64,000 nucleotides of DNA from Candidatus Hecatella orcuttiae. GTDB taxonomy: Archaea > Thermoproteota > Bathyarchaeia > Hecatellales > Hecatellaceae. The notes below the pieces were generated by a model. That model was not told where the DNA came from, did not search any database, and worked only from the letters and a program-made list of their open reading frames with translations. The DNA lies in the NCBI GenBank assembly GCA_002011035.2, contig MTLY02000002.1:352001-416000 (forward strand). The letters are read 5' to 3'. Both the position numbers and the translations under genes were made by a program. Each line of letters begins with the position of its first letter. Within the stretch, counting starts at the first letter, position 1. This document shows, in pieces, positions 381 to 6,493 of this stretch.

Positions 381-1100
381 TCAGAGAGGCTCTTCTTTAA
401 CAGAAAACTCAAAACTTTTCCTGATCCTTTCACTTAAACTATAGCTGAAAGGTATTACATCAGTGTTTCTAACCACATAACCTTCTCTGTAAAGTTTTTT
501 CATTAACCTCGCTGCGTGCTCCCGTGTTTTGCCGATGACCTCTCTAATTTCCGGAGCTGTTTTAGGGCCGCTGCGGTACAAAACTTTTAGGACAGCCATC
601 TCTGTGGGGGTTAAGCGAGCGATGGAGACGTTTCCCCCCTCTAGCGTTGGACTCGGCTCCTCCAAACGTGGAGTCAAGCCTCGCATTTTTTTATCTTGGG
701 CATTAACCTGCTGTTCAAGCTGGATACGCTTTTCATCTAGGGCAGATAGTTTATCGTTATGGACTTTCAATATTTTTGCGAATTTTGTCTGAGCGCGGAA
801 GAGCTCTTTGATATTGGCGGTTAATGCTGATAACGTTTCCCTCTCAGCTTCATGGAAAGATTGAAGGCGGTTTAACTCTGAAAAGGAAGCTTCAATTCTG
901 TGCAGAGCATAGGAGACACTCTCCTCAACTTTAGCCATCTTCTTACTTAACTGAACTATGGAAAGCTGAACCAAGTCGCTTAACTCCCCTAGAGAACTCT
1001 TTTTAGGCCTTCTGAATAGAAGCAGTGCGAGAAGAAATCCGAAGGCCGCTGTAAAACTCAACAAGCCTAGAAAAAACACTTCTCCGGAAAAAACCGTCAT
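381..1100 (-). CDS. Membrane-anchored coiled-coil protein with C-terminal winged-helix (MarR/TrmB-like) domain
   Basis: N-terminal hydrophobic helix (VFFLGLLSFTAAFGFLLALLLF) followed by RRPKK, a long heptad-rich middle region, then LTPTEMAVLKVL..GPKTAPEIREVIGKTREHAARLMKKLYREGYV wHTH. Confidence 0.8.
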   Translation of the reverse strand: MTVFSGEVFFLGLLSFTAAFGFLLALLLFRRPKKSSLGELSDLVQLSIVQLSKKMAKVEESVSYALHRIEASFSELNRLQSFHEAERETLSALTANIKELFRAQTKFAKILKVHNDKLSALDEKRIQLEQQVNAQDKKMRGLTPRLEEPSPTLEGGNVSIARLTPTEMAVLKVLYRSGPKTAPEIREVIGKTREHAARLMKKLYREGYVVRNTDVIPFSYSLSERIRKSFEFSVKEEPL

Positions 1101-1106
1101 GAAATC

Positions 1107-1499
1107 TCACTCACCCTCTCACATGTGACCTGAAGAAAATCACAGAAATAATCACCTGTGACCTCTTCAACTGCATAATTCCCACCTGATATCACAAGTG
1201 ATGCTTTTGTAAGCAAGCACATCACATTTGACCTGACATTCATTCAAAAAATTATTCTCTTTATCAGGATTTAAACCTTGTGATTCCACCTACAAATCAT
1301 GTGACATCACGTTTATATGATAATTTTTCATTAAAAAGGAGTTATTCGGTGAAAAGAAGCTTATTTTTAGGGCTAAAATTGTTTTTAAACAATAATATAA
1401 GTTTTTATGTTAAGACATCACATGTCAAGTCACAGCTGATGTTTATTTATGATTTCAGGCGGTCACGGCATCACATGTAATCTGTGACATCACGTTTGA
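1107..1499. repeat. Array of palindromic TCACnnnTGA boxes flanking an AT-rich core (candidate origin or centromere-like site)
   Basis: Boxes at 1119 (TCACATGTGA, perfect palindrome), 1152, 1192, 1222, 1307, 1418, 1430, 1471, 1490, plus degenerate partners. 15-bp direct repeat TGTGACATCACGTTT at 1300 and 1483. Core 1312-1413 has 20 G+C in 102 nt. Confidence 0.85.
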
Positions 1500-1993
1500 T
1501 ATTTCAATGACTTGGGAGAAGTCAAAGTATTTAGGGCTTTTTCCAAGGCCTCCCTTACAGAAACAATGGTTGCGGCTCTTTGAAGTTCGTCGGAACTTGA
1601 TGAGGACTCTTCGCGGACTTGTCTATGTAAATCTAAATAGTCCTTCAGTCTACTGGACAATTCGATGTATTGTTGGAAGGCAGGCAAGTCGAAGATCCCC
1701 AGGGAGCCCAGTAATAAAAACGTGTATATTGACTTTATTATGTTTTTCTGAGCTTGTTTCAGGGTTCTATTGAAAGAACCTTTACTAATTTTTCCTTTAA
1801 TTCTAAAATAAGTTTTTTCTTCAGTTATCATTTTATTTCCAGATAAATATGGAATTATAGTGTCTATTAGAAACGTTTCCAGCTGCGTTTTGGTTAAATG
1901 ACTGTTTTTAAGTAGAATATCAGTGATGGGGTCTTGGTCGAGGTTTCTTAGCCATTTTTTGAATTCTTCAGGGTCCTTTAATTCCACGCTCAA
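1490..1993 (-). CDS. Archaeal hypothetical protein with possible HTH
   Basis: 167-aa ORF. LTKTQLETFL...ISKGSFNRTLKQAQKNIIKS resembles a sigma70-region-4-like HTH followed by a hydrophobic helix. Confidence 0.65.
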   Translation of the reverse strand: MSVELKDPEEFKKWLRNLDQDPITDILLKNSHLTKTQLETFLIDTIIPYLSGNKMITEEKTYFRIKGKISKGSFNRTLKQAQKNIIKSIYTFLLLGSLGIFDLPAFQQYIELSSRLKDYLDLHRQVREESSSSSDELQRAATIVSVREALEKALNTLTSPKSLKYQT

Positions 1994-2132
1994 GGAAACA
2001 CCCTGAAAGAATACGTTTTTGTATACCAGTATTTAAATCTTCCCGCAATCATAAGGTCTAAGGTTCCAATTTTTGGAGGCTTACCATACCTTTAGAAGCT
2101 AGGTGAGCAGGGAAACCCAGGCTTTCCGGAGG

Positions 2133-3446: not shown

Positions 3447-3809
3447 TCACCTGAAGTGAATGCTGGTTTTCGAATTTCCCATGCTCTTAACGAGGTTCAT
3501 CAGCGTTCGACCTGCTAGGGGATCGTTTTCTTGGGGGATAAACACCGAAGCTAGGGCGGTCTTGCCCCATTTGGCTGCCAAATATTCCGCCAAAACCCTA
3601 GCGAGGTGGGAGTTCTTATAGCCGAGGAGAAGGCTTGAAGAATGAGGCGCGGAAGGAGGAATGGGCGGGGTTGCCACGGCTAGGGTGCCCAGTTTAGTTT
3701 TCTCCCCTTCGAAAAAGAAGCTTAGGATAGCGTTGTCCAGTTCGAAGATGTAGACTGAAAATTTTCTTCCTTCCAGCTCCACTGTTTTGCTTAGGGCTTG
3801 GGGGAACAT
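3447..3809 (-). CDS. Hypothetical protein, possibly proteasome assembly chaperone (PAC4-like)
   Basis: Likely ATG start at 3809 with AGGAGT just upstream. KLGTLAVATP...LARVLAEYLAAKWGKTALASV resembles the PAC4 family pattern. Confidence 0.5.
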   Translation of the reverse strand: MFPQALSKTVELEGRKFSVYIFELDNAILSFFFEGEKTKLGTLAVATPPIPPSAPHSSSLLLGYKNSHLARVLAEYLAAKWGKTALASVFIPQENDPLAGRTLMNLVKSMGNSKTSIHFR

Positions 3810-3844
3810 CACTCCTTTAATCTCCAAGAAATCCTTAAAACATT

Positions 3845-4627
3845 GTGCTGGAAAAGGGAAATAACTTTTTGCGGAGGATGATAGATAAAGTTCAACCGCT
3901 TGAGGCGGCGACGACTTTGAAGCAGGATGCCAGCTGGATGGGTTCAATAATTTCCAGACTTAGGAAACACTTCGGAAAAATAATGTGGGCCAAATCGAAA
4001 GACTCTTTCGAGATTCTCGTGGCAACGATCCTAAGTCAAAACACCTCCGATGTCAACAGCCATCGCGCCTTCAGAGAGTTAAAAAAAGCCATGAAGCTTA
4101 CTCCGCAGGTTCTGGCTGAAAAGCCTCTGGGAGAGATCAAGCAGGCCATTCGAACAGCTGGGCTGGCTGAAATCAAAGCTAAAAGGTTGAAAGAGGCTTC
4201 CAAGTTCATCTTGAGGGAACTGGGAGGAAACCTGTCCAAAGTGTTCAACCTCCCTCCAGAAGAGAGTAGAAATTTTCTGCTGAGATTACCAGGTGTCGGA
4301 GATAAAACCGCCGACGTCATCTTAGTTTTCGCGGGGGGAATCCCCGTTGTTCCAGTGGATACGCATCTTTTCACCATAGGGAAGAGGCTGGGGCTTACAG
4401 CTTCCAGCCGCTACCAAGATGTCAGAGCAGCCTACGAGCGGCTTATCCCTCCAAAGGAAAGGGCGGAGGCCCATGTTCTCTTCATCGAGTTGGGGAAAAA
4501 AATCTGCACGGCTAGGAATCCTAAGCATGAAGCTTGCCCTATTCTAGACCTGTGTCCCACGGGGCTGAAATCTGTCTCCCAAGTGGATGATGAGGCTGAG
4601 AGGCGGCTTTCTGATACAGGCATGTGA
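3845..4627 (+). CDS. nth: Endonuclease III family DNA glycosylase
   Basis: FEILVATILSQNTSD, HhH LPGVGDKTA, PVDTH, C-terminal C-x6-H-x2-C-x5-C cluster motif. True start is probably 3878 or 3938. Confidence 0.93.
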   Translation: MLEKGNNFLRRMIDKVQPLEAATTLKQDASWMGSIISRLRKHFGKIMWAKSKDSFEILVATILSQNTSDVNSHRAFRELKKAMKLTPQVLAEKPLGEIKQAIRTAGLAEIKAKRLKEASKFILRELGGNLSKVFNLPPEESRNFLLRLPGVGDKTADVILVFAGGIPVVPVDTHLFTIGKRLGLTASSRYQDVRAAYERLIPPKERAEAHVLFIELGKKICTARNPKHEACPILDLCPTGLKSVSQVDDEAERRLSDTGM

Positions 4628-4777: not shown

Positions 4778-5413
4778 TTGAAACCGCTTAAAAACTGGGA
4801 AAAGAAGGATTCTCTCTTCGGAAAAATTAGCGACCGCTTCCACCGCACTCCGCCTTTGAGGGATAAGGTTTTCAACTCCCTCTACAAACTTAACAGCATC
4901 CAAGCTAAACTGGAGCAGTTGACCAACAAACTGGAGCAGAAGGATCGGGAGCTCTTTGGCAAATGCGCTGAATCCATGGCCCGGGGAGATGAGGAGCGTT
5001 CGAAGATCTATGCCAACGAGTGCGCTCAGCTGAGGAAGATGGCTAAAACCGTTTTGGGAAGCCAGCTGGCCATCGAGCAGGCTGCTTTAAGGCTGGAGAC
5101 GGTGAAGGAATTCGGAGACGTGGCCAAGGAGATGATGCCTGTAGCTGGTGTAGTTCGGTCGTTGAAAGGGAAGCTGGTGGGAGTTATGCCTGAAGCCTCC
5201 TTGGAGCTCAACGAAATTGGAGAAACATTAAACGAGATCATGTTCGAGGCGGGGGAAGTCTCCGCGTCGGCTCCCAGCTTCCAAGCCTCAGGGGAAGAGG
5301 CTCAGAAAATCCTTCAGTCCGCTTCGGTTTTGGCTGAGCAGAAAATGAAAGAGAAATTCCCCAAACTTCCAGTGGGAGAATTTGCGGAGGAGCGTTCTCC
5401 CGACCTCGGCTAG
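4778..5413 (+). CDS. cdvB: ESCRT-III (Snf7/CdvB family) protein without C-terminal winged helix
   Basis: KLEQKDRELFGKCA...ERSKIYANECAQLRKMAK...LAIEQAALRLETVKEFGD...GVMPE...EEAQKIL..A..LAEQKMKEKFPKLP, typical of archaeal CdvB paralogues. Confidence 0.92.
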   Translation: MKPLKNWEKKDSLFGKISDRFHRTPPLRDKVFNSLYKLNSIQAKLEQLTNKLEQKDRELFGKCAESMARGDEERSKIYANECAQLRKMAKTVLGSQLAIEQAALRLETVKEFGDVAKEMMPVAGVVRSLKGKLVGVMPEASLELNEIGETLNEIMFEAGEVSASAPSFQASGEEAQKILQSASVLAEQKMKEKFPKLPVGEFAEERSPDLG

Positions 5414-5515
5414 TCTTCAAAACAGTCCGCAGCCTAGTCTTTCAAGACTTCCTTCAAGCTACTCCGCTTCCCCCCTCAACAGTGCGAGGTGGTTTAGGAT
5501 AGAAGGTTATTTCCG

Positions 5516-6493
5516 ATGGGAAGAGAGGAAAGACTTGAAGATGAAGTCCTAAGGATCTTTTTCGTCCTCTTGTCTGTGGTGAGTTGGTTTTTTATTCTCC
5601 AGTGGGCAGCGGAGCTTCTAGGCTGGCCCAGCCGGCCGGCGGGGTGGTCCTACCTCGCCGCCTTCTACGGGGCCTCTGCCGCCTATCTGGTGGGAAGGAC
5701 GAAAGGGCGGCTTAGAAAGGTCGTCTACGACTCCCCTTTTGCCGCTTATATCAACCTCCTGATAATCCTCGTCCCCCTATTCCTCATCTACCTAGCCTTG
5801 GCAAATCCCCCGCTGGAGGAGGCTCCTGGAAAAATCAGCCGACTGACGGCTTCAAGCCCCCTCACCTTGGCTTCAGGTTGGCTTTTCTCCTTCACCGCCT
5901 ACAGGTTTCTGGACAAGCTCTACGACAGGATTTTTGGGGTTTTCGAAAAAACCGGCCCCAGAGTCAGCTTCAAGACATCCGGCCCCATTCAAAGAGATGC
6001 GGAGGAGGTAGCGGGGAGGCTTGAGGTTGAGGCTGGAAAGCTGGCAGCCAAAGCCTCTGCTTGGGAGAAGCATGCCCACAGGTTGTACGATAAAGCCTTA
6101 GCAGCTCAGGTTTCAGGAAAAGCCGATAAAGCCAGCGCCTACCTTACAGCCTACTGGGAGGCGAAGAAGAACTCAGACCTGCTGGTGAAGGTGCAGGTGC
6201 AACTGGAAGGCTTAGTGGAGAGGCTTAAAACCCTCCACAGCTTCGCGGAAACCATGGCCGAGATGCCCTCCGCCTTCAAAACCATTTCAGAGCTTAAAGG
6301 GAGACTGAAGGGAGTTATTCCCGCTTTCTCCGGCGAACTGGAGAAGATAGGGCGAACGGTAGAAGAGCTTCTGGCCAAGACGCAGGCTCACGGCGGCAGC
6401 CTCCCAGAACAGCTCCAGGGAAAAGAGGCTCAAAAAATCCTCCTAGAAGCCGGCGGCGTAGCAGAGGCGAGGCTGAGGCATGGGAAAGACTAA
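5516..6493 (+). CDS. Multi-pass membrane protein fused to a C-terminal ESCRT-III/CdvB-like domain
   Basis: About four hydrophobic segments in residues ~11-132. Residues ~157-322 align by eye with the upstream CdvB (LKGRLKGVIPAFSGELEKIG vs LKGKLVGVMPEASLELNEIG; EAQKILLEA vs EAQKILQSA). Confidence 0.85.
   Translation: MGREERLEDEVLRIFFVLLSVVSWFFILQWAAELLGWPSRPAGWSYLAAFYGASAAYLVGRTKGRLRKVVYDSPFAAYINLLIILVPLFLIYLALANPPLEEAPGKISRLTASSPLTLASGWLFSFTAYRFLDKLYDRIFGVFEKTGPRVSFKTSGPIQRDAEEVAGRLEVEAGKLAAKASAWEKHAHRLYDKALAAQVSGKADKASAYLTAYWEAKKNSDLLVKVQVQLEGLVERLKTLHSFAETMAEMPSAFKTISELKGRLKGVIPAFSGELEKIGRTVEELLAKTQAHGGSLPEQLQGKEAQKILLEAGGVAEARLRHGKD

What the first reader, a model, noticed from the sequence alone, without database searches (positions are those of the whole stretch)
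5516..6493. Integral-membrane ESCRT-III: CdvB paralogue fused to about four transmembrane helices, directly downstream of a soluble ESCRT-III
Seen in sequence: one uninterrupted 325-aa ORF with hydrophobic segments at about residues 11-37, 44-60, 74-96 and 115-132. The remainder aligns colinearly with the adjacent CdvB: KLAAKASAWEKHAHRLYDKAL vs KLEQLTNKLEQKDRELFGKCA; QVQLEGLVERLKTL vs QLAIEQAALRLETV; LKGRLKGVIPAFSGELEKIG vs LKGKLVGVMPEASLELNEIG; EAQKILLEAGGVAEARLR vs EAQKILQSASVLAEQKMK. It lacks the Pro-containing tail (KFPKLP) of the neighbour. Established knowledge: ESCRT-III/PspA/Vipp1 proteins are soluble and are recruited by adaptors (CdvA, ESCRT-II, PspBC), and C-terminal tails recruit Vps4/CdvC. 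I know of no characterised polytopic ESCRT-III. Inference: a built-in membrane nucleator that seeds filaments of the soluble partner without CdvA, perhaps for membrane repair, vesiculation or division.
Basis: partly seen in the sequence, partly recalled or inferred. Interest (0 to 1): 0.9.

Follow-up and report, generated by a model that had tools for sequence, protein, structure and literature searches.

The report
Membrane-anchored archaeal ESCRT-III (CdvB) protein
A Bathyarchaeia genome encodes a cell-division-type ESCRT-III protein permanently fused to a four-helix membrane anchor, a rare but conserved design that may seed or tether membrane-remodelling filaments.

Summary
Window 5516-6493(+) is one 325-aa ORF. 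Residues 1-133 form a four-helix membrane module of no known family. Residues 157-323 are a CdvB-type ESCRT-III core (NCBIfam CdvB1/B2 E 9e-18; solved CdvB2 E 4e-38; AF2 pLDDT 94-98; the 11 best Foldseek PDB hits are all CdvB/CdvB2).

It is neither a chimera nor a one-genome event. Five 50%-identity clusters among 1.84 billion representative proteins share the architecture. It occurs in 3 of 14 genomes (3 of 7 genera) of its order. In all three it lies 102-138 nt downstream of an orthologous soluble CdvB1/2-like gene, in two different genomic contexts.

K+R counts over six members (75 versus 10) place both termini, and so the ESCRT-III domain, in the cytoplasm. The anchor replaces the N-terminal amphipathic helices that soluble CdvBs need for membrane binding.

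At least three other, unrelated N-terminal membrane anchors on CdvB domains were found. The window copy is the most divergent member and lacks the [FL]PxxP tail kept by 4 of 6.

Nucleation or tethering of the soluble partner is plausible but untested. Bacterial Snf7 homologues with a TM segment and plastid TM-hairpin proteins are partial precedents. I rate it a new variant of a known kind.

The parts
4778..5413 (+). Soluble CdvB1/B2-like ESCRT-III paralogue (211 aa) with an N-terminal amphipathic-type region and a C-terminal FPKLP tail; candidate partner
   Evidence: ORF. NF041005 E 2.6e-60, residues 5-200; groups 99/91* with the neighbours of the G001/G003 fusions and with the single copies of G005/G006; alignment A6.
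5414..5515 (.). 102-nt intergenic spacer between the two ESCRT-III genes. It has no run of five or more T; a GAAGGT stretch lies about 8 nt before the ATG
   Evidence: sequence read directly. The spacer is 138 nt in G003 and 110 nt in G001. Operon status was not determined.
5516..6493 (+). Whole ORF, 325 aa plus stop: four-TM module, linker, ESCRT-III core
5555..5623 (+). TM1 (residues 14-36), strongly hydrophobic
   Evidence: KD up to 2.19; H3-35; 0 K/R in six members.
5645..5695 (+). TM2 (residues 44-60), moderately hydrophobic, Gly/Ala/Ser-rich (invariant S45, A49, G52, A53)
   Evidence: H39-61; no charged residue in six members.
5696..5737 (+). Conserved basic loop (residues 61-74, GRTKGRLRKVVYDS), predicted cytoplasmic
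   Evidence: 27 K/R versus 6 D/E over six members; conserved.
5738..5806 (+). TM3 (residues 75-97), strongly hydrophobic; invariant Y78, L81, P87, Y92
   Evidence: KD 2.5; H74-96.
5855..5911 (+). TM4 (residues 114-132); invariant P115, L118, W122, F124, F126, L132. It continues as a juxtamembrane helix to about residue 146
   Evidence: (H115-146).
5912..5983 (+). Juxtamembrane helix plus flexible linker (residues 133-156). It takes the place of the N-terminal amphipathic region of soluble CdvBs
   Evidence: pLDDT below 50 at residues 147-152; the match starts at model position 26 of 212; 32 K/R over six members.
5984..6484 (+). ESCRT-III core (residues 157-323): alpha1 157-199, alpha2 203-238, alpha3 243-264, alpha4 269-292, alpha5 303-323. 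No C-terminal [FL]PxxP tail
   Evidence: pLDDT 94-98 over most of it; Foldseek top 11 are CdvB2/CdvB, E 2.2e-5 to 3.9e-3, TM by target 0.59-0.73.

Best explanation
The gene encodes an integral-membrane ESCRT-III subunit. A four-helix bundle with both termini in the cytoplasm is joined by a roughly 25-residue linker to a complete CdvB-type ESCRT-III core (alpha1-alpha5).

[quoted passage not shown] The fusion therefore turns reversible membrane binding into permanent tethering, with the hairpin held at the cytoplasmic membrane face.

Most likely (inferred) it co-assembles with the soluble CdvB1/2-like paralogue encoded 102 nt upstream. It would act as a membrane-resident seed or tether that fixes where, and how firmly, that paralogue's polymer engages the membrane. 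This would be an accessory ESCRT-III module beside the canonical CdvA / CdvB / CdvC locus of the same genome.

Shown: the architecture, the fold, family conservation and conserved gene pairing. Supported by prediction: the cytoplasmic orientation. Inferred only: co-polymerisation, nucleation and the cellular process served (division, vesicle budding or repair).

The window copy has lost the [FL]PxxP tail. If that tail is the CdvC-binding MIM2 (recalled), this copy would not be handled directly by CdvC.
For: - Architecture and fold: NF041005 E 9.2e-18, residues 151-321; AF2 mean pLDDT 81.4; core 94-98; solved CdvB2 E 4e-38; the top 11 Foldseek PDB hits are all CdvB2/CdvB; the next hits have E of 0.2 or more.
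- Topology: over six members, K+R are 16 (N-terminus) + 27 (loop 2-3) + 32 (after TM4) = 75 on one side, against 4 + 6 = 10 in loops 1-2 and 3-4.
- Not an artefact: full-length homologues P0002-P0005 and P0151. Both halves are conserved. A contig of run X7, not flagged as a possible source, covers 5777-6353 with 0 differences.
- Pairing: the soluble gene lies directly upstream on the same strand in 3 of 3 genomes with context. The flanks differ. G000 has HD / PAC4 / EndoIII ... MBL / Endo-dU / PolD small subunit. G001 and G003 have L7Ae / NDK ... Alba (Pfam run on the G001 proteins only). The three soluble neighbours are orthologous (99/91*).
- Position of the anchor: the N-terminal amphipathic helices of CdvB, CdvB1 and CdvB2 are required for liposome binding, and membrane contact is proposed to trigger opening (PMC12818579, abstract and passages).
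- Recurrence: three other CdvB-domain proteins carry unrelated N-terminal anchors (P0035, P0039, P0118). The P0039 type lies in a Bathyarchaeia species genome as signal-like segment, ectodomain, TM, RRRR, then CdvB. They fall outside the four-TM clade.
Against: - No assay, expression data or interaction evidence exists.
- Orthologues of the soluble partner exist without any fusion gene. G005 and G006 share the window's synteny but go straight from the soluble gene to Endo-dU. G002 and G007 also lack the fusion. So the partner does not depend on it.
- The module was found in only 3 of 14 genomes of the order and 3 of 401 sampled in the class, so it is dispensable.
- The window copy is the most divergent member. 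Its end branch is 2.3 against a median of 0.73. It keeps only 22 of 43 positions conserved among soluble CdvBs (other fusions 27-33; soluble rows 25-42, median 36). At two of the columns invariant among the soluble rows it has L (position 210) and A (position 212) instead of A and E.
- An integral subunit cannot cycle through the cytosol, whereas canonical ESCRT-III action relies on Vps4-driven subunit exchange (established knowledge).
- TM2 and TM4 are only moderately hydrophobic, and no dedicated topology predictor was available.
- One relative (P0010) carries an all-beta domain after the same four-TM module. If that domain is extracellular, the C-in topology would be in doubt.
Confidence: 0.45

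Rival explanations
1. Membrane-resident regulator or cap. The anchored subunit binds the end or side of soluble CdvB polymers, or sequesters monomers at the membrane. It would limit or terminate assembly rather than seed it. Without a CdvC-binding tail, the window copy would be a stable brake.
For: The window copy and P0004 lack the [FL]PxxP tail. The window copy has changed 21 of 43 conserved core positions, including two of those that are invariant among the soluble rows, as expected if it no longer propagates a normal lattice. The conserved pairing with a soluble paralogue fits a regulator as well as a seed.
Against: 4 of 6 family members keep a tail, and their cores are more canonical (27-33 of 43). 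All five helices are present and modelled with high confidence. No known ESCRT-III cap is membrane-integral (recalled, not searched specifically).
Confidence: 0.2
2. Autonomous membrane-shaping or stress protein. The fusion homo-oligomerises in the membrane plane (PspA/Vipp1-like carpets or rings) and acts on its own. The adjacency to the soluble gene would be a remnant of an old tandem duplication.
For: The complete ESCRT-III core is retained. CdvB2 can homopolymerise (PMC12818579, passages). The fusion clade is not nested in any soluble orthogroup (98/99* split). The soluble orthologue exists alone in other genomes.
Against: The two genes stay adjacent through a change of genomic context. 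That is not expected for functionally unlinked genes at 26-28% identity between fusion orthologues.
Confidence: 0.2
3. A decaying paralogue in this genome. The family is or was functional elsewhere, but the window copy is under relaxed selection and does little.
For: It has the longest terminal branch in the tree (2.3), the fewest conserved core residues (22 of 43) and a lost C-terminal tail. The gene is absent from the syntenic locus in G005/G006, so it is dispensable in relatives.
Against: The 325-codon frame is intact, with no stop or frameshift. The TM half keeps all 16 family-invariant residues by construction of alignment A5, and is 31-37% identical to the others, no less than its ESCRT half. 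AF2 models the core at pLDDT 94-98. The sequence is identical in contigs of four runs, one of which may be the window's own source.
Confidence: 0.1
4. Assembly chimera or a missed stop or frameshift that joins a membrane-protein gene to a CdvB gene.
For: None beyond the rarity of the architecture.
Against: Six sequences at 22-53% ESCRT-half identity share the same junction and linker length. They come from different assemblies. A contig of run X7, not flagged as a possible source, bridges the junction (5777-6353) with 0 differences.
Confidence: 0.02

Closest known systems
Sulfolobus CdvB1/CdvB2 (soluble archaeal ESCRT-III; solved structures 9s97-9s99, 9s9j/k)
   Same: The same five-helix ESCRT-III core by sequence (E 4e-38 and 5.7e-33) and by fold. 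The membrane-binding element lies N-terminal to alpha1.
   Different: Soluble CdvBs bind membranes reversibly through short amphipathic helices (PMC12818579). Here that region is replaced by a four-TM bundle. The window copy has no Pro-rich tail and no winged-helix extension. All matches are far below NCBIfam's equivalog cut-off (64 versus 350 bits), as are the genome's other three CdvB-like genes.
Bacterial Snf7 homologues with a TM segment, and the actinobacterial Snf7-RND transporter fusion (Ravi et al., mSystems 2024, PMC11237479; passages only)
   Same: An ESCRT-III-superfamily domain and membrane-spanning segments in one polypeptide, noted by comparative genomics and uncharacterised.
   Different: Bacterial, with different membrane parts and different neighbourhoods (AAA+ ATPase, ABC transporter). 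I did not compare sequences: the accessions are in supplementary tables that were closed. No relation to the four-TM module was seen in any search here.
Membrane-integral alpha1/2-hairpin proteins of the Vipp1 interactome (PPR At1g64430 family and cyanobacterial homologues; Plant J 2026, PMC13051332, passages)
   Same: TM helices plus an ESCRT-III-like hairpin, found next to a soluble ESCRT-III-superfamily polymer (Vipp1), and proposed to take part in its membrane interaction.
   Different: They have only the hairpin, not a full alpha1-alpha5 core. They belong to the bacterial/plastid lineage and their role is also unknown. Not compared by sequence here.
Separate membrane adaptors of ESCRT-III-superfamily polymers: CdvA-CdvB, PspB/C-PspA, LiaI-LiaH
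   Same: They solve the same problem of bringing an ESCRT-III-type polymer to a membrane site.
   Different: There the adaptor and the polymer subunit are different proteins. Here the anchor is built into a subunit. The genome still has CdvA.
Eukaryotic CHMP7
   Same: An ESCRT-III domain with an N-terminal membrane-binding extension that acts as a site-specific nucleator for other ESCRT-III subunits.
   Different: CHMP7's extension is an ESCRT-II-like winged-helix region that binds membrane peripherally, not a polytopic anchor. No homology of the N-terminal parts is implied.

Membership tests
ESCRT-III / Snf7 superfamily (archaeal CdvB group) | Five-helix core with a long alpha1/alpha2 hairpin followed by alpha3-alpha5 | tested here: met
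   AF2 gives helices 157-199, 203-238, 243-264, 269-292 and 303-323 at pLDDT 94-98 over most of the core. Foldseek PDB ranks 1-11 are all CdvB2/CdvB, probability 1.00, TM by target 0.59-0.73.
ESCRT-III / Snf7 superfamily (archaeal CdvB group) | Significant sequence match to curated CdvB models or solved CdvB proteins | tested here: met
   NF041005 E 9.2e-18, NF041008 E 6.5e-6. Profile against PDB: CdvB2 E 4e-38, CdvB E 5.7e-33.
NCBIfam equivalog CdvB1/B2 (NF041005) and Pfam Snf7 (PF03357) | Score above the curated cut-off | tested here: not met
   64.4 bits against a cut-off of 350. There is no Pfam Snf7 hit at E up to 0.1. The genome's three soluble CdvB-like genes also stay under the NF041005 cut-off (0 of 4 over it), so this reflects lineage distance.
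ESCRT-III / CdvB | Short N-terminal amphipathic helix or helices as the membrane-binding element | tested here: not met
   The match to NF041005 starts at model position 26. Residues 1-133 are a four-TM module instead.
ESCRT-III / CdvB | C-terminal MIT-interacting motif for Vps4/CdvC (the Pro-rich MIM2-like [FL]PxxP; identification of the motif is recalled) | tested here: not met
   The window protein ends ...ARLRHGKD. The tail is present in 4 of 6 family members and in the soluble neighbour (FPKLP). A CdvC with a MIT domain exists in the genome.
ESCRT-III / CdvB | Polymerisation into filaments, and cycling between cytosol and membrane | not testable with these tools
   This needs biochemistry. 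One complex-prediction job gave no verdict (see Tried and rejected).
Classical CdvB (with a winged-helix extension that binds CdvA) | C-terminal winged-helix domain after the ESCRT-III core | tested here: not met
   The protein ends 2 residues after alpha5. The genome's 294-aa CdvB at G000:C3 has the extension.
PspA/Vipp1 (PspA_IM30) | Match to the PspA_IM30 family | tested here: not met
   No such Pfam hit at E up to 0.1. The best structural and sequence matches are CdvB-type.
Any known membrane-domain family for residues 1-150 | Pfam, Atlas or PDB match shared by family members | tested here: not met
   Pfam at E up to 1 on 7 members: six families, each hit by only 1 of 7. The Atlas gave no usable feature hit and structural TM scores of 0.45 or less. 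No PDB sequence or fold hit covers the N-terminal half.

The most novel reading that the evidence does not exclude
Integral-membrane ESCRT-III subunits form a distinct, repeatedly evolved class in Bathyarchaeia and relatives. Permanently anchored, and therefore constitutively membrane-activated, subunits would mark sites in the membrane and template polymers of a dedicated soluble paralogue independently of CdvA. This would give these FtsZ-plus-Cdv organisms a second ESCRT-III machine, for example for vesicle budding or membrane repair. The different anchors (four-TM bundle, two-TM, ectodomain plus one TM) would couple assembly to different membrane or extracellular cues.
Probability: 0.3. Interest if true: 0.8.

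Novelty: new variant of a known kind. Interest (0 to 1): 0.62.

Why it matters
ESCRT-III and PspA/Vipp1 biology is built on soluble subunits that are recruited to membranes, activated there and removed again. A natural subunit that can never leave the membrane tests that picture.

It bears directly on the 2026 proposal that membrane contact, not polymerisation, opens CdvB-type subunits. It also offers a minimal, adaptor-free seed for reconstitution experiments.

Several unrelated anchors have been grafted onto CdvB cores. The four-TM family is in Bathyarchaeia genomes, and so is the one other anchor type (P0039) that I traced to a genome. This suggests selection for site-fixed ESCRT-III in an uncultured, globally abundant archaeal group that carries both FtsZ and Cdv systems, where the division of labour between them is unknown.

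If the window copy turns out to be a decaying paralogue, the family members with intact tails (P0002, P0003/P0151, P0005) remain the better experimental targets.

Tried and rejected
- **Complex prediction**: ESCRT half of the fusion (A3, residues 150-325) with the soluble neighbour (A6). Verdict 'no answer' (score 0.11, mark 0.32). This is not evidence either way.
- **Expression**: no RNA holder listed, so nothing can be said on expression. Nine DNA runs hold all or part of the stretch; five may be the source.
- **Metagenome contig scans** with A2 and with P0004 found no relative, so the gene neighbourhoods of P0004 and P0005 could not be examined.
- **Genome-contig scan** with A2 returned only the G003 contig.
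- **Word-index protein searches** returned only P0001, P0003, P0151 and P0010. They add names ('hypothetical protein') but little reach.
- **Family for the four-TM module:**
  - Pfam on the single protein and on 7 members, the ESM Atlas, and PDB sequence and fold searches gave nothing credible. DUF5337 at E 0.007-0.022 appears in 1 of 7 members and was rejected as chance.
  - The five weak class-level matches to the TM profile (E 0.002-0.009, short partial stretches in unrelated long frames) and one in G000:C1 with four stops were rejected as noise.
- **Other anchors:** the P0035-type anchor was not found in 401 class genomes. With no positive control genome this says little. The P0118 anchor was not searched in genomes.
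- **P0010:** AF2 was low-confidence (mean pLDDT 54.2). It only suggests an all-beta C-terminal part.
- **Promoter and operon reading** of the 102-nt spacer was inconclusive. An AT-rich TATA-like stretch lies upstream of the soluble gene. I saw no clear one before the fusion gene. The G003 spacer has a T5 run right after the soluble gene's stop. I do not claim an operon.
- **Origin of the fusion's ESCRT half:** the tree separates the fusion clade from all 35 other rows but is unrooted and has long branches. I do not claim which soluble paralogue it came from.
  - That tree used 41 rows: 17 of the 150 representatives (133 left out for run time) plus locus-derived proteins. CdvB genes of loci L008, L010, L011 and L013-L016 were left out.
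  - AF2 alignment A4 used 82 rows: 10 locus- or window-derived rows and 72 of the stored P-ids, with fragments and some long forms omitted.
- **Literature.**
  - Searches: 10 papers; 9; 5; 11; 0 papers for six phrasings of membrane-anchored / transmembrane / integral ESCRT-III; 1.
  - I read only search listings and found passages of PMC11188069, PMC11237479, PMC7618577, PMC12818579, PMC7619361, PMC13051332 and PMC9723716.
  - None of the passages seen describes an archaeal CdvB with transmembrane helices.
  - Supplementary tables were closed. These include the architecture and accession tables of PMC11188069 / PMC10936438 and Table S3 of PMC11237479, which may list such proteins.
Full report
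**What is in the sequence.** One search lists an uninterrupted ORF at 5516-6493 (+), ATG start, 325 aa. Upstream of it, after a 102-nt spacer, lies a 211-aa ORF at 4778-5413 (+). Base composition around the pair is unremarkable for this part of the window (GC 0.50-0.58).

Kyte-Doolittle scanning shows two strongly hydrophobic stretches, about residues 9-36 and 68-101.

BLASTP of the two neighbouring products gives 29% identity over 149 residues with a single gap, E 2e-16.

**The C-terminal half is an ESCRT-III core.**
- Pfam gives no significant hit for the 325-aa protein.
- NCBIfam's CdvB1/B2 model matches residues 151-321 at E 9.2e-18 (64 bits), followed by CdvB at 6.5e-6 and CdvB3 at 0.002.
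- The score is far below the equivalog cut-off of 350 bits. The same is true of all four CdvB-like genes of this genome (0 of 4 over the cut-off), so this reflects lineage distance.
- A profile of six family members hits the solved Sulfolobus CdvB2 (9s97) at E 4e-38 and CdvB (9s9j) at 5.7e-33. CHMP2A, CHMP1B and CHMP3 follow at 0.003-0.09.
- AF2 with an 82-row alignment gives mean pLDDT 81.4. Helices at 157-199, 203-238, 243-264, 269-292 and 303-323 have block pLDDT of 94-98 over most of the core.
- Foldseek against the PDB ranks CdvB2 filament chains and S. islandicus CdvB at positions 1-11 (E 2.2e-5 to 3.9e-3, probability 1.00, TM by target 0.59-0.73). The next hits have E of 0.2 or more.

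**The N-terminal half is a conserved four-helix membrane module of no known family.**
- AF2 models helices 3-35, 39-61, 74-96 and 115-146, plus two short ones, at pLDDT 65-80. A low-confidence linker follows at 147-152.
- The four segments align without difficulty in seven homologues, with 16 invariant residues: S20, W24, S45, A49, G52, A53, Y78, L81, P87, Y92, P115, L118, W122, F124, F126 and L132.
- A conserved basic loop, GRxKGRLRKIxYDS, lies between helices 2 and 3.
- K+R counts summed over six members are 16 (N-terminus), 27 (loop 2-3) and 32 (after helix 4), against 4 (loop 1-2) and 6 (loop 3-4).
- By the positive-inside rule (established knowledge) this gives a four-TM topology with both termini, and so the ESCRT-III domain, in the cytoplasm.
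- I had no dedicated topology predictor, and helices 2 and 4 are marginal by hydropathy alone. This step is well supported but not proven.
- No family was found for the module. Each weak Pfam match appears in only 1 of 7 members. The Atlas gave no usable feature hit and structural TM scores of 0.45 or less. Nothing in the PDB covers it.

**It is neither a chimera nor a single-genome event.**
- A full-length profile was searched against 1.84 billion 50%-identity representatives. It found 705 proteins at E up to 0.001.
- Among the 150 listed, five cover both halves end to end: P0001 (the window's own), P0002, P0003, P0004 and P0005. One more (P0010) matches the membrane module only.
- In whole genomes, the membrane-module profile matches strongly in 3 of 401 sampled genomes of the class and in 3 of 14 genomes (3 of 7 genera) of the order. 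These are G000, G001 and G003.
- The five other class-level matches (E 0.002-0.009) are short partial stretches, which I treat as noise.
- Names given by sources place these genomes in Candidatus Bathyarchaeia / Bathyarchaeota. The protein is annotated only as hypothetical.
- Both halves are conserved among members, at 31-42% identity in the TM half and 22-44% in the ESCRT half outside the closest pair. The junction has the same layout in all six.
- A contig from run X7, not flagged as a possible source, covers 5777-6353, across the junction, with no differences. A possible source run (X1) covers the whole stretch in one piece.

**Genomic setting.**
- The genome carries a canonical Cdv set on another contig.
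  - G000:C3 holds a CdvB1/2-like gene, a 294-aa CdvB with a C-terminal extension, and a MIT-AAA CdvC/Vps4.
  - A CdvA lies about 70 kb away.
  - There are two FtsZ/tubulin homologues.
- The window pair is thus an additional ESCRT-III module.
- In all 3 genomes where context is available, the fusion gene lies directly downstream, on the same strand, of a soluble CdvB1/2-like gene. The spacers are 102, 138 and 110 nt.
- Those three soluble genes are orthologous. They form a 99/91* clade together with single copies from G005 and G006.
- The surroundings differ.
  - In the window the pair sits between HD / PAC4-like / endonuclease III genes and MBL-fold / Endo-dU / PolD small-subunit genes.
  - In G001 and G003 it sits between L7Ae-NDK and Alba (Pfam was run on the G001 proteins only).
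- G005 and G006 keep the window's synteny (HD, PAC4, EndoIII, soluble CdvB, Endo-dU, PolD) but have neither the fusion gene nor the MBL gene.
- So the pair stays together through rearrangement, which argues for functional linkage. The soluble member also exists alone, which argues that the fusion is an accessory.

**Evolution.**
- In a 41-row maximum-likelihood tree of the ESCRT-III columns, the six fusions form one clade. It is separated from all 35 other rows by a 98/99* branch.
- The tree is unrooted and the fusions sit on long branches, so I do not infer which soluble paralogue gave rise to them.
- The window copy has the longest terminal branch (2.3; median 0.73) and groups with P0004 (93/93).
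- Among 75 soluble rows, 43 positions are at least 70% conserved.
  - The window copy keeps 22 of them, the other fusions 27-33, and the soluble rows 25-42 (median 36).
  - At two of the columns invariant among the soluble rows it has L (position 210) and A (position 212) instead of A and E.
- It and P0004 lack the C-terminal [FL]PxxP-like tail. The other four fusions and the soluble neighbour carry it.
- I recall this Pro-rich tail as the MIM2-type motif that binds the MIT domain of CdvC. That identification was not tested here.
- The window copy is therefore the least canonical member. Relaxed selection in this genome cannot be excluded, although the frame is intact and the model is confident.

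**Membrane anchoring of CdvB cores is recurrent.**
Nine of these have strongly hydrophobic segments N-terminal to it.
  - Six belong to the four-TM family.
  - The other three are P0035 (several TM segments), P0039 (large N-terminal domain plus one TM) and P0118 (two TM segments).
- Seven further hydropathy hits lie inside the ESCRT core and are not anchors.
- All three extra proteins match the CdvB1/B2 model in their C-terminal halves (E 6e-38, 7e-51 for the G044 orthologue, and 7e-31). All keep an FPELP tail.
- In the tree they fall outside the four-TM clade. P0118 pairs with a soluble representative at 98/82*.
- The P0039 type is present in one of 401 class genomes (G044). There it is a 576-aa protein with a signal-like hydrophobic start, a sequon-rich domain, one TM helix followed by RRRR, and then the CdvB core.
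- The P0035 anchor was not found in that sample.
- In each case the basic residues after the last TM helix put the ESCRT-III core on the cytoplasmic side (read from the sequences).

**How it most likely works.**
- The 2026 structural study of the Sulfolobus machinery (PMC12818579; abstract and passages) reports the following.
  - Short N-terminal amphipathic helices of CdvB, CdvB1 and CdvB2 are required for liposome binding.
  - Soluble CdvB2 filaments stay in the closed state.
  - Membrane contact appears to trigger the open state.
- In the fusion, the match to the CdvB1/B2 model begins at model position 26. That is just after the amphipathic region, which is replaced by the four-TM module plus a juxtamembrane helix and linker.
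- The simplest reading is a subunit that is permanently, rather than reversibly, presented at the cytoplasmic membrane face.
- Given the conserved adjacency to one particular soluble paralogue, I favour a seed or tether that co-assembles with that paralogue (confidence 0.45).
- The rivals:
  - a brake or cap (0.2), favoured by the tail loss and core changes of this copy;
  - an autonomous, PspA-like membrane protein (0.2);
  - a decaying copy (0.1);
  - an artefact (0.02).
- Nothing here shows which cellular process is served. With FtsZ and a full Cdv set also present, an accessory role (budding, repair, local shaping) seems more likely than core cytokinesis. This is inference.

**Comparison with what is known.**
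- By fold and sequence the protein belongs to the archaeal CdvB branch of the ESCRT-III superfamily. It fails two features typical of soluble members: the N-terminal amphipathic helix and, in this copy, the C-terminal tail. It also fails the curated equivalog cut-offs.
- Partial precedents exist only as comparative-genomic or interactome notes.
  - Bacterial Snf7 homologues with a TM segment, and an actinobacterial Snf7-RND fusion (PMC11237479).
  - Membrane-integral alpha1/2-hairpin proteins enriched with Vipp1 (PMC13051332).
- Passages seen in the ESCRT diversity survey mention TM segments only in kinases and adaptin-like proteins, and, for Bathyarchaeia, extra CdvA-like proteins (PMC11188069). 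Passages seen in two recent reviews do not mention TM-fused ESCRT-III (PMC7618577 and PMC7619361).
- Six phrasings for a membrane-anchored, transmembrane or integral ESCRT-III returned no paper.
- Supplementary tables were closed and may contain such architectures.
- I therefore rate this a new variant of a known kind, not a new kind.

**Limits.** There is no expression evidence and no interaction evidence. There was no topology predictor. No neighbourhoods could be examined for P0004 and P0005. Details are in Tried and rejected.

Noticed in passing
P0010 (273 aa, JGI 'hypothetical protein'; no locus): The same four-TM module (143 bits, 217 bits) is followed by an all-beta C-terminal part of about 100 residues instead of an ESCRT-III core. 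That part has a weak MG4 macroglobulin-domain hit at E 0.0075. AF2 shows seven strands at low confidence, mean pLDDT 54. The module is therefore a portable anchor. If the beta domain were extracellular, it would challenge the C-in topology.
   Followed up: partly
G000:C3, L034 1112-1687 and 1728-2309; L033 4318-4953 and 4943-5515; L041 2939-3457: Two paralogous proteins of about 190 aa with no Pfam family (32% identical to each other, E 1e-33) lie directly upstream of the canonical cdvB genes in G000. By eye, the same holds in G001. A homologue (49% identity, E 5e-28) lies next to the ectodomain-TM-CdvB gene of G044. This may be an undescribed Cdv-associated family in Bathyarchaeia.
   Followed up: partly
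L041 916-2646 (-), genome G044: A 576-aa protein with a signal-like hydrophobic N-terminus, a large domain rich in N-x-S/T sequons with no Pfam match, one TM helix, RRRR, and then a CdvB1/B2-like core with an FPELP tail. It is a second, unrelated membrane-anchored ESCRT-III architecture in the same class.
   Followed up: partly
window 381-1100 (-): A 239-aa protein with an N-terminal hydrophobic helix, a long coiled-coil region (weak SMC/tropomyosin-type hits) and a C-terminal MarR/TrmB-type winged helix (E 1e-6). It looks like a membrane-tethered DNA-binding protein.
   Followed up: no
window 1001-2000: GC falls to 0.36 here, against 0.43-0.51 on either side and about 0.6 further on. The stretch holds a 167-aa ORF (1490-1993, -) with no Pfam or NCBIfam match.
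   Followed up: no
G000:C3:491365-491877 and 340669-341193: The genome has two FtsZ/tubulin-family genes. One lies about 10 kb upstream of the cdvB-cdvB-cdvC cluster, so it carries both division systems.
   Followed up: no
window 3447-3947 (-) and 3845-4627 (+): The PAC4-like ORF and the endonuclease III ORF overlap by about 100 nt as listed. The GTG start given for the endonuclease III gene is probably too far upstream: the G005 orthologue is 221 aa against 260 aa here.
   Followed up: no
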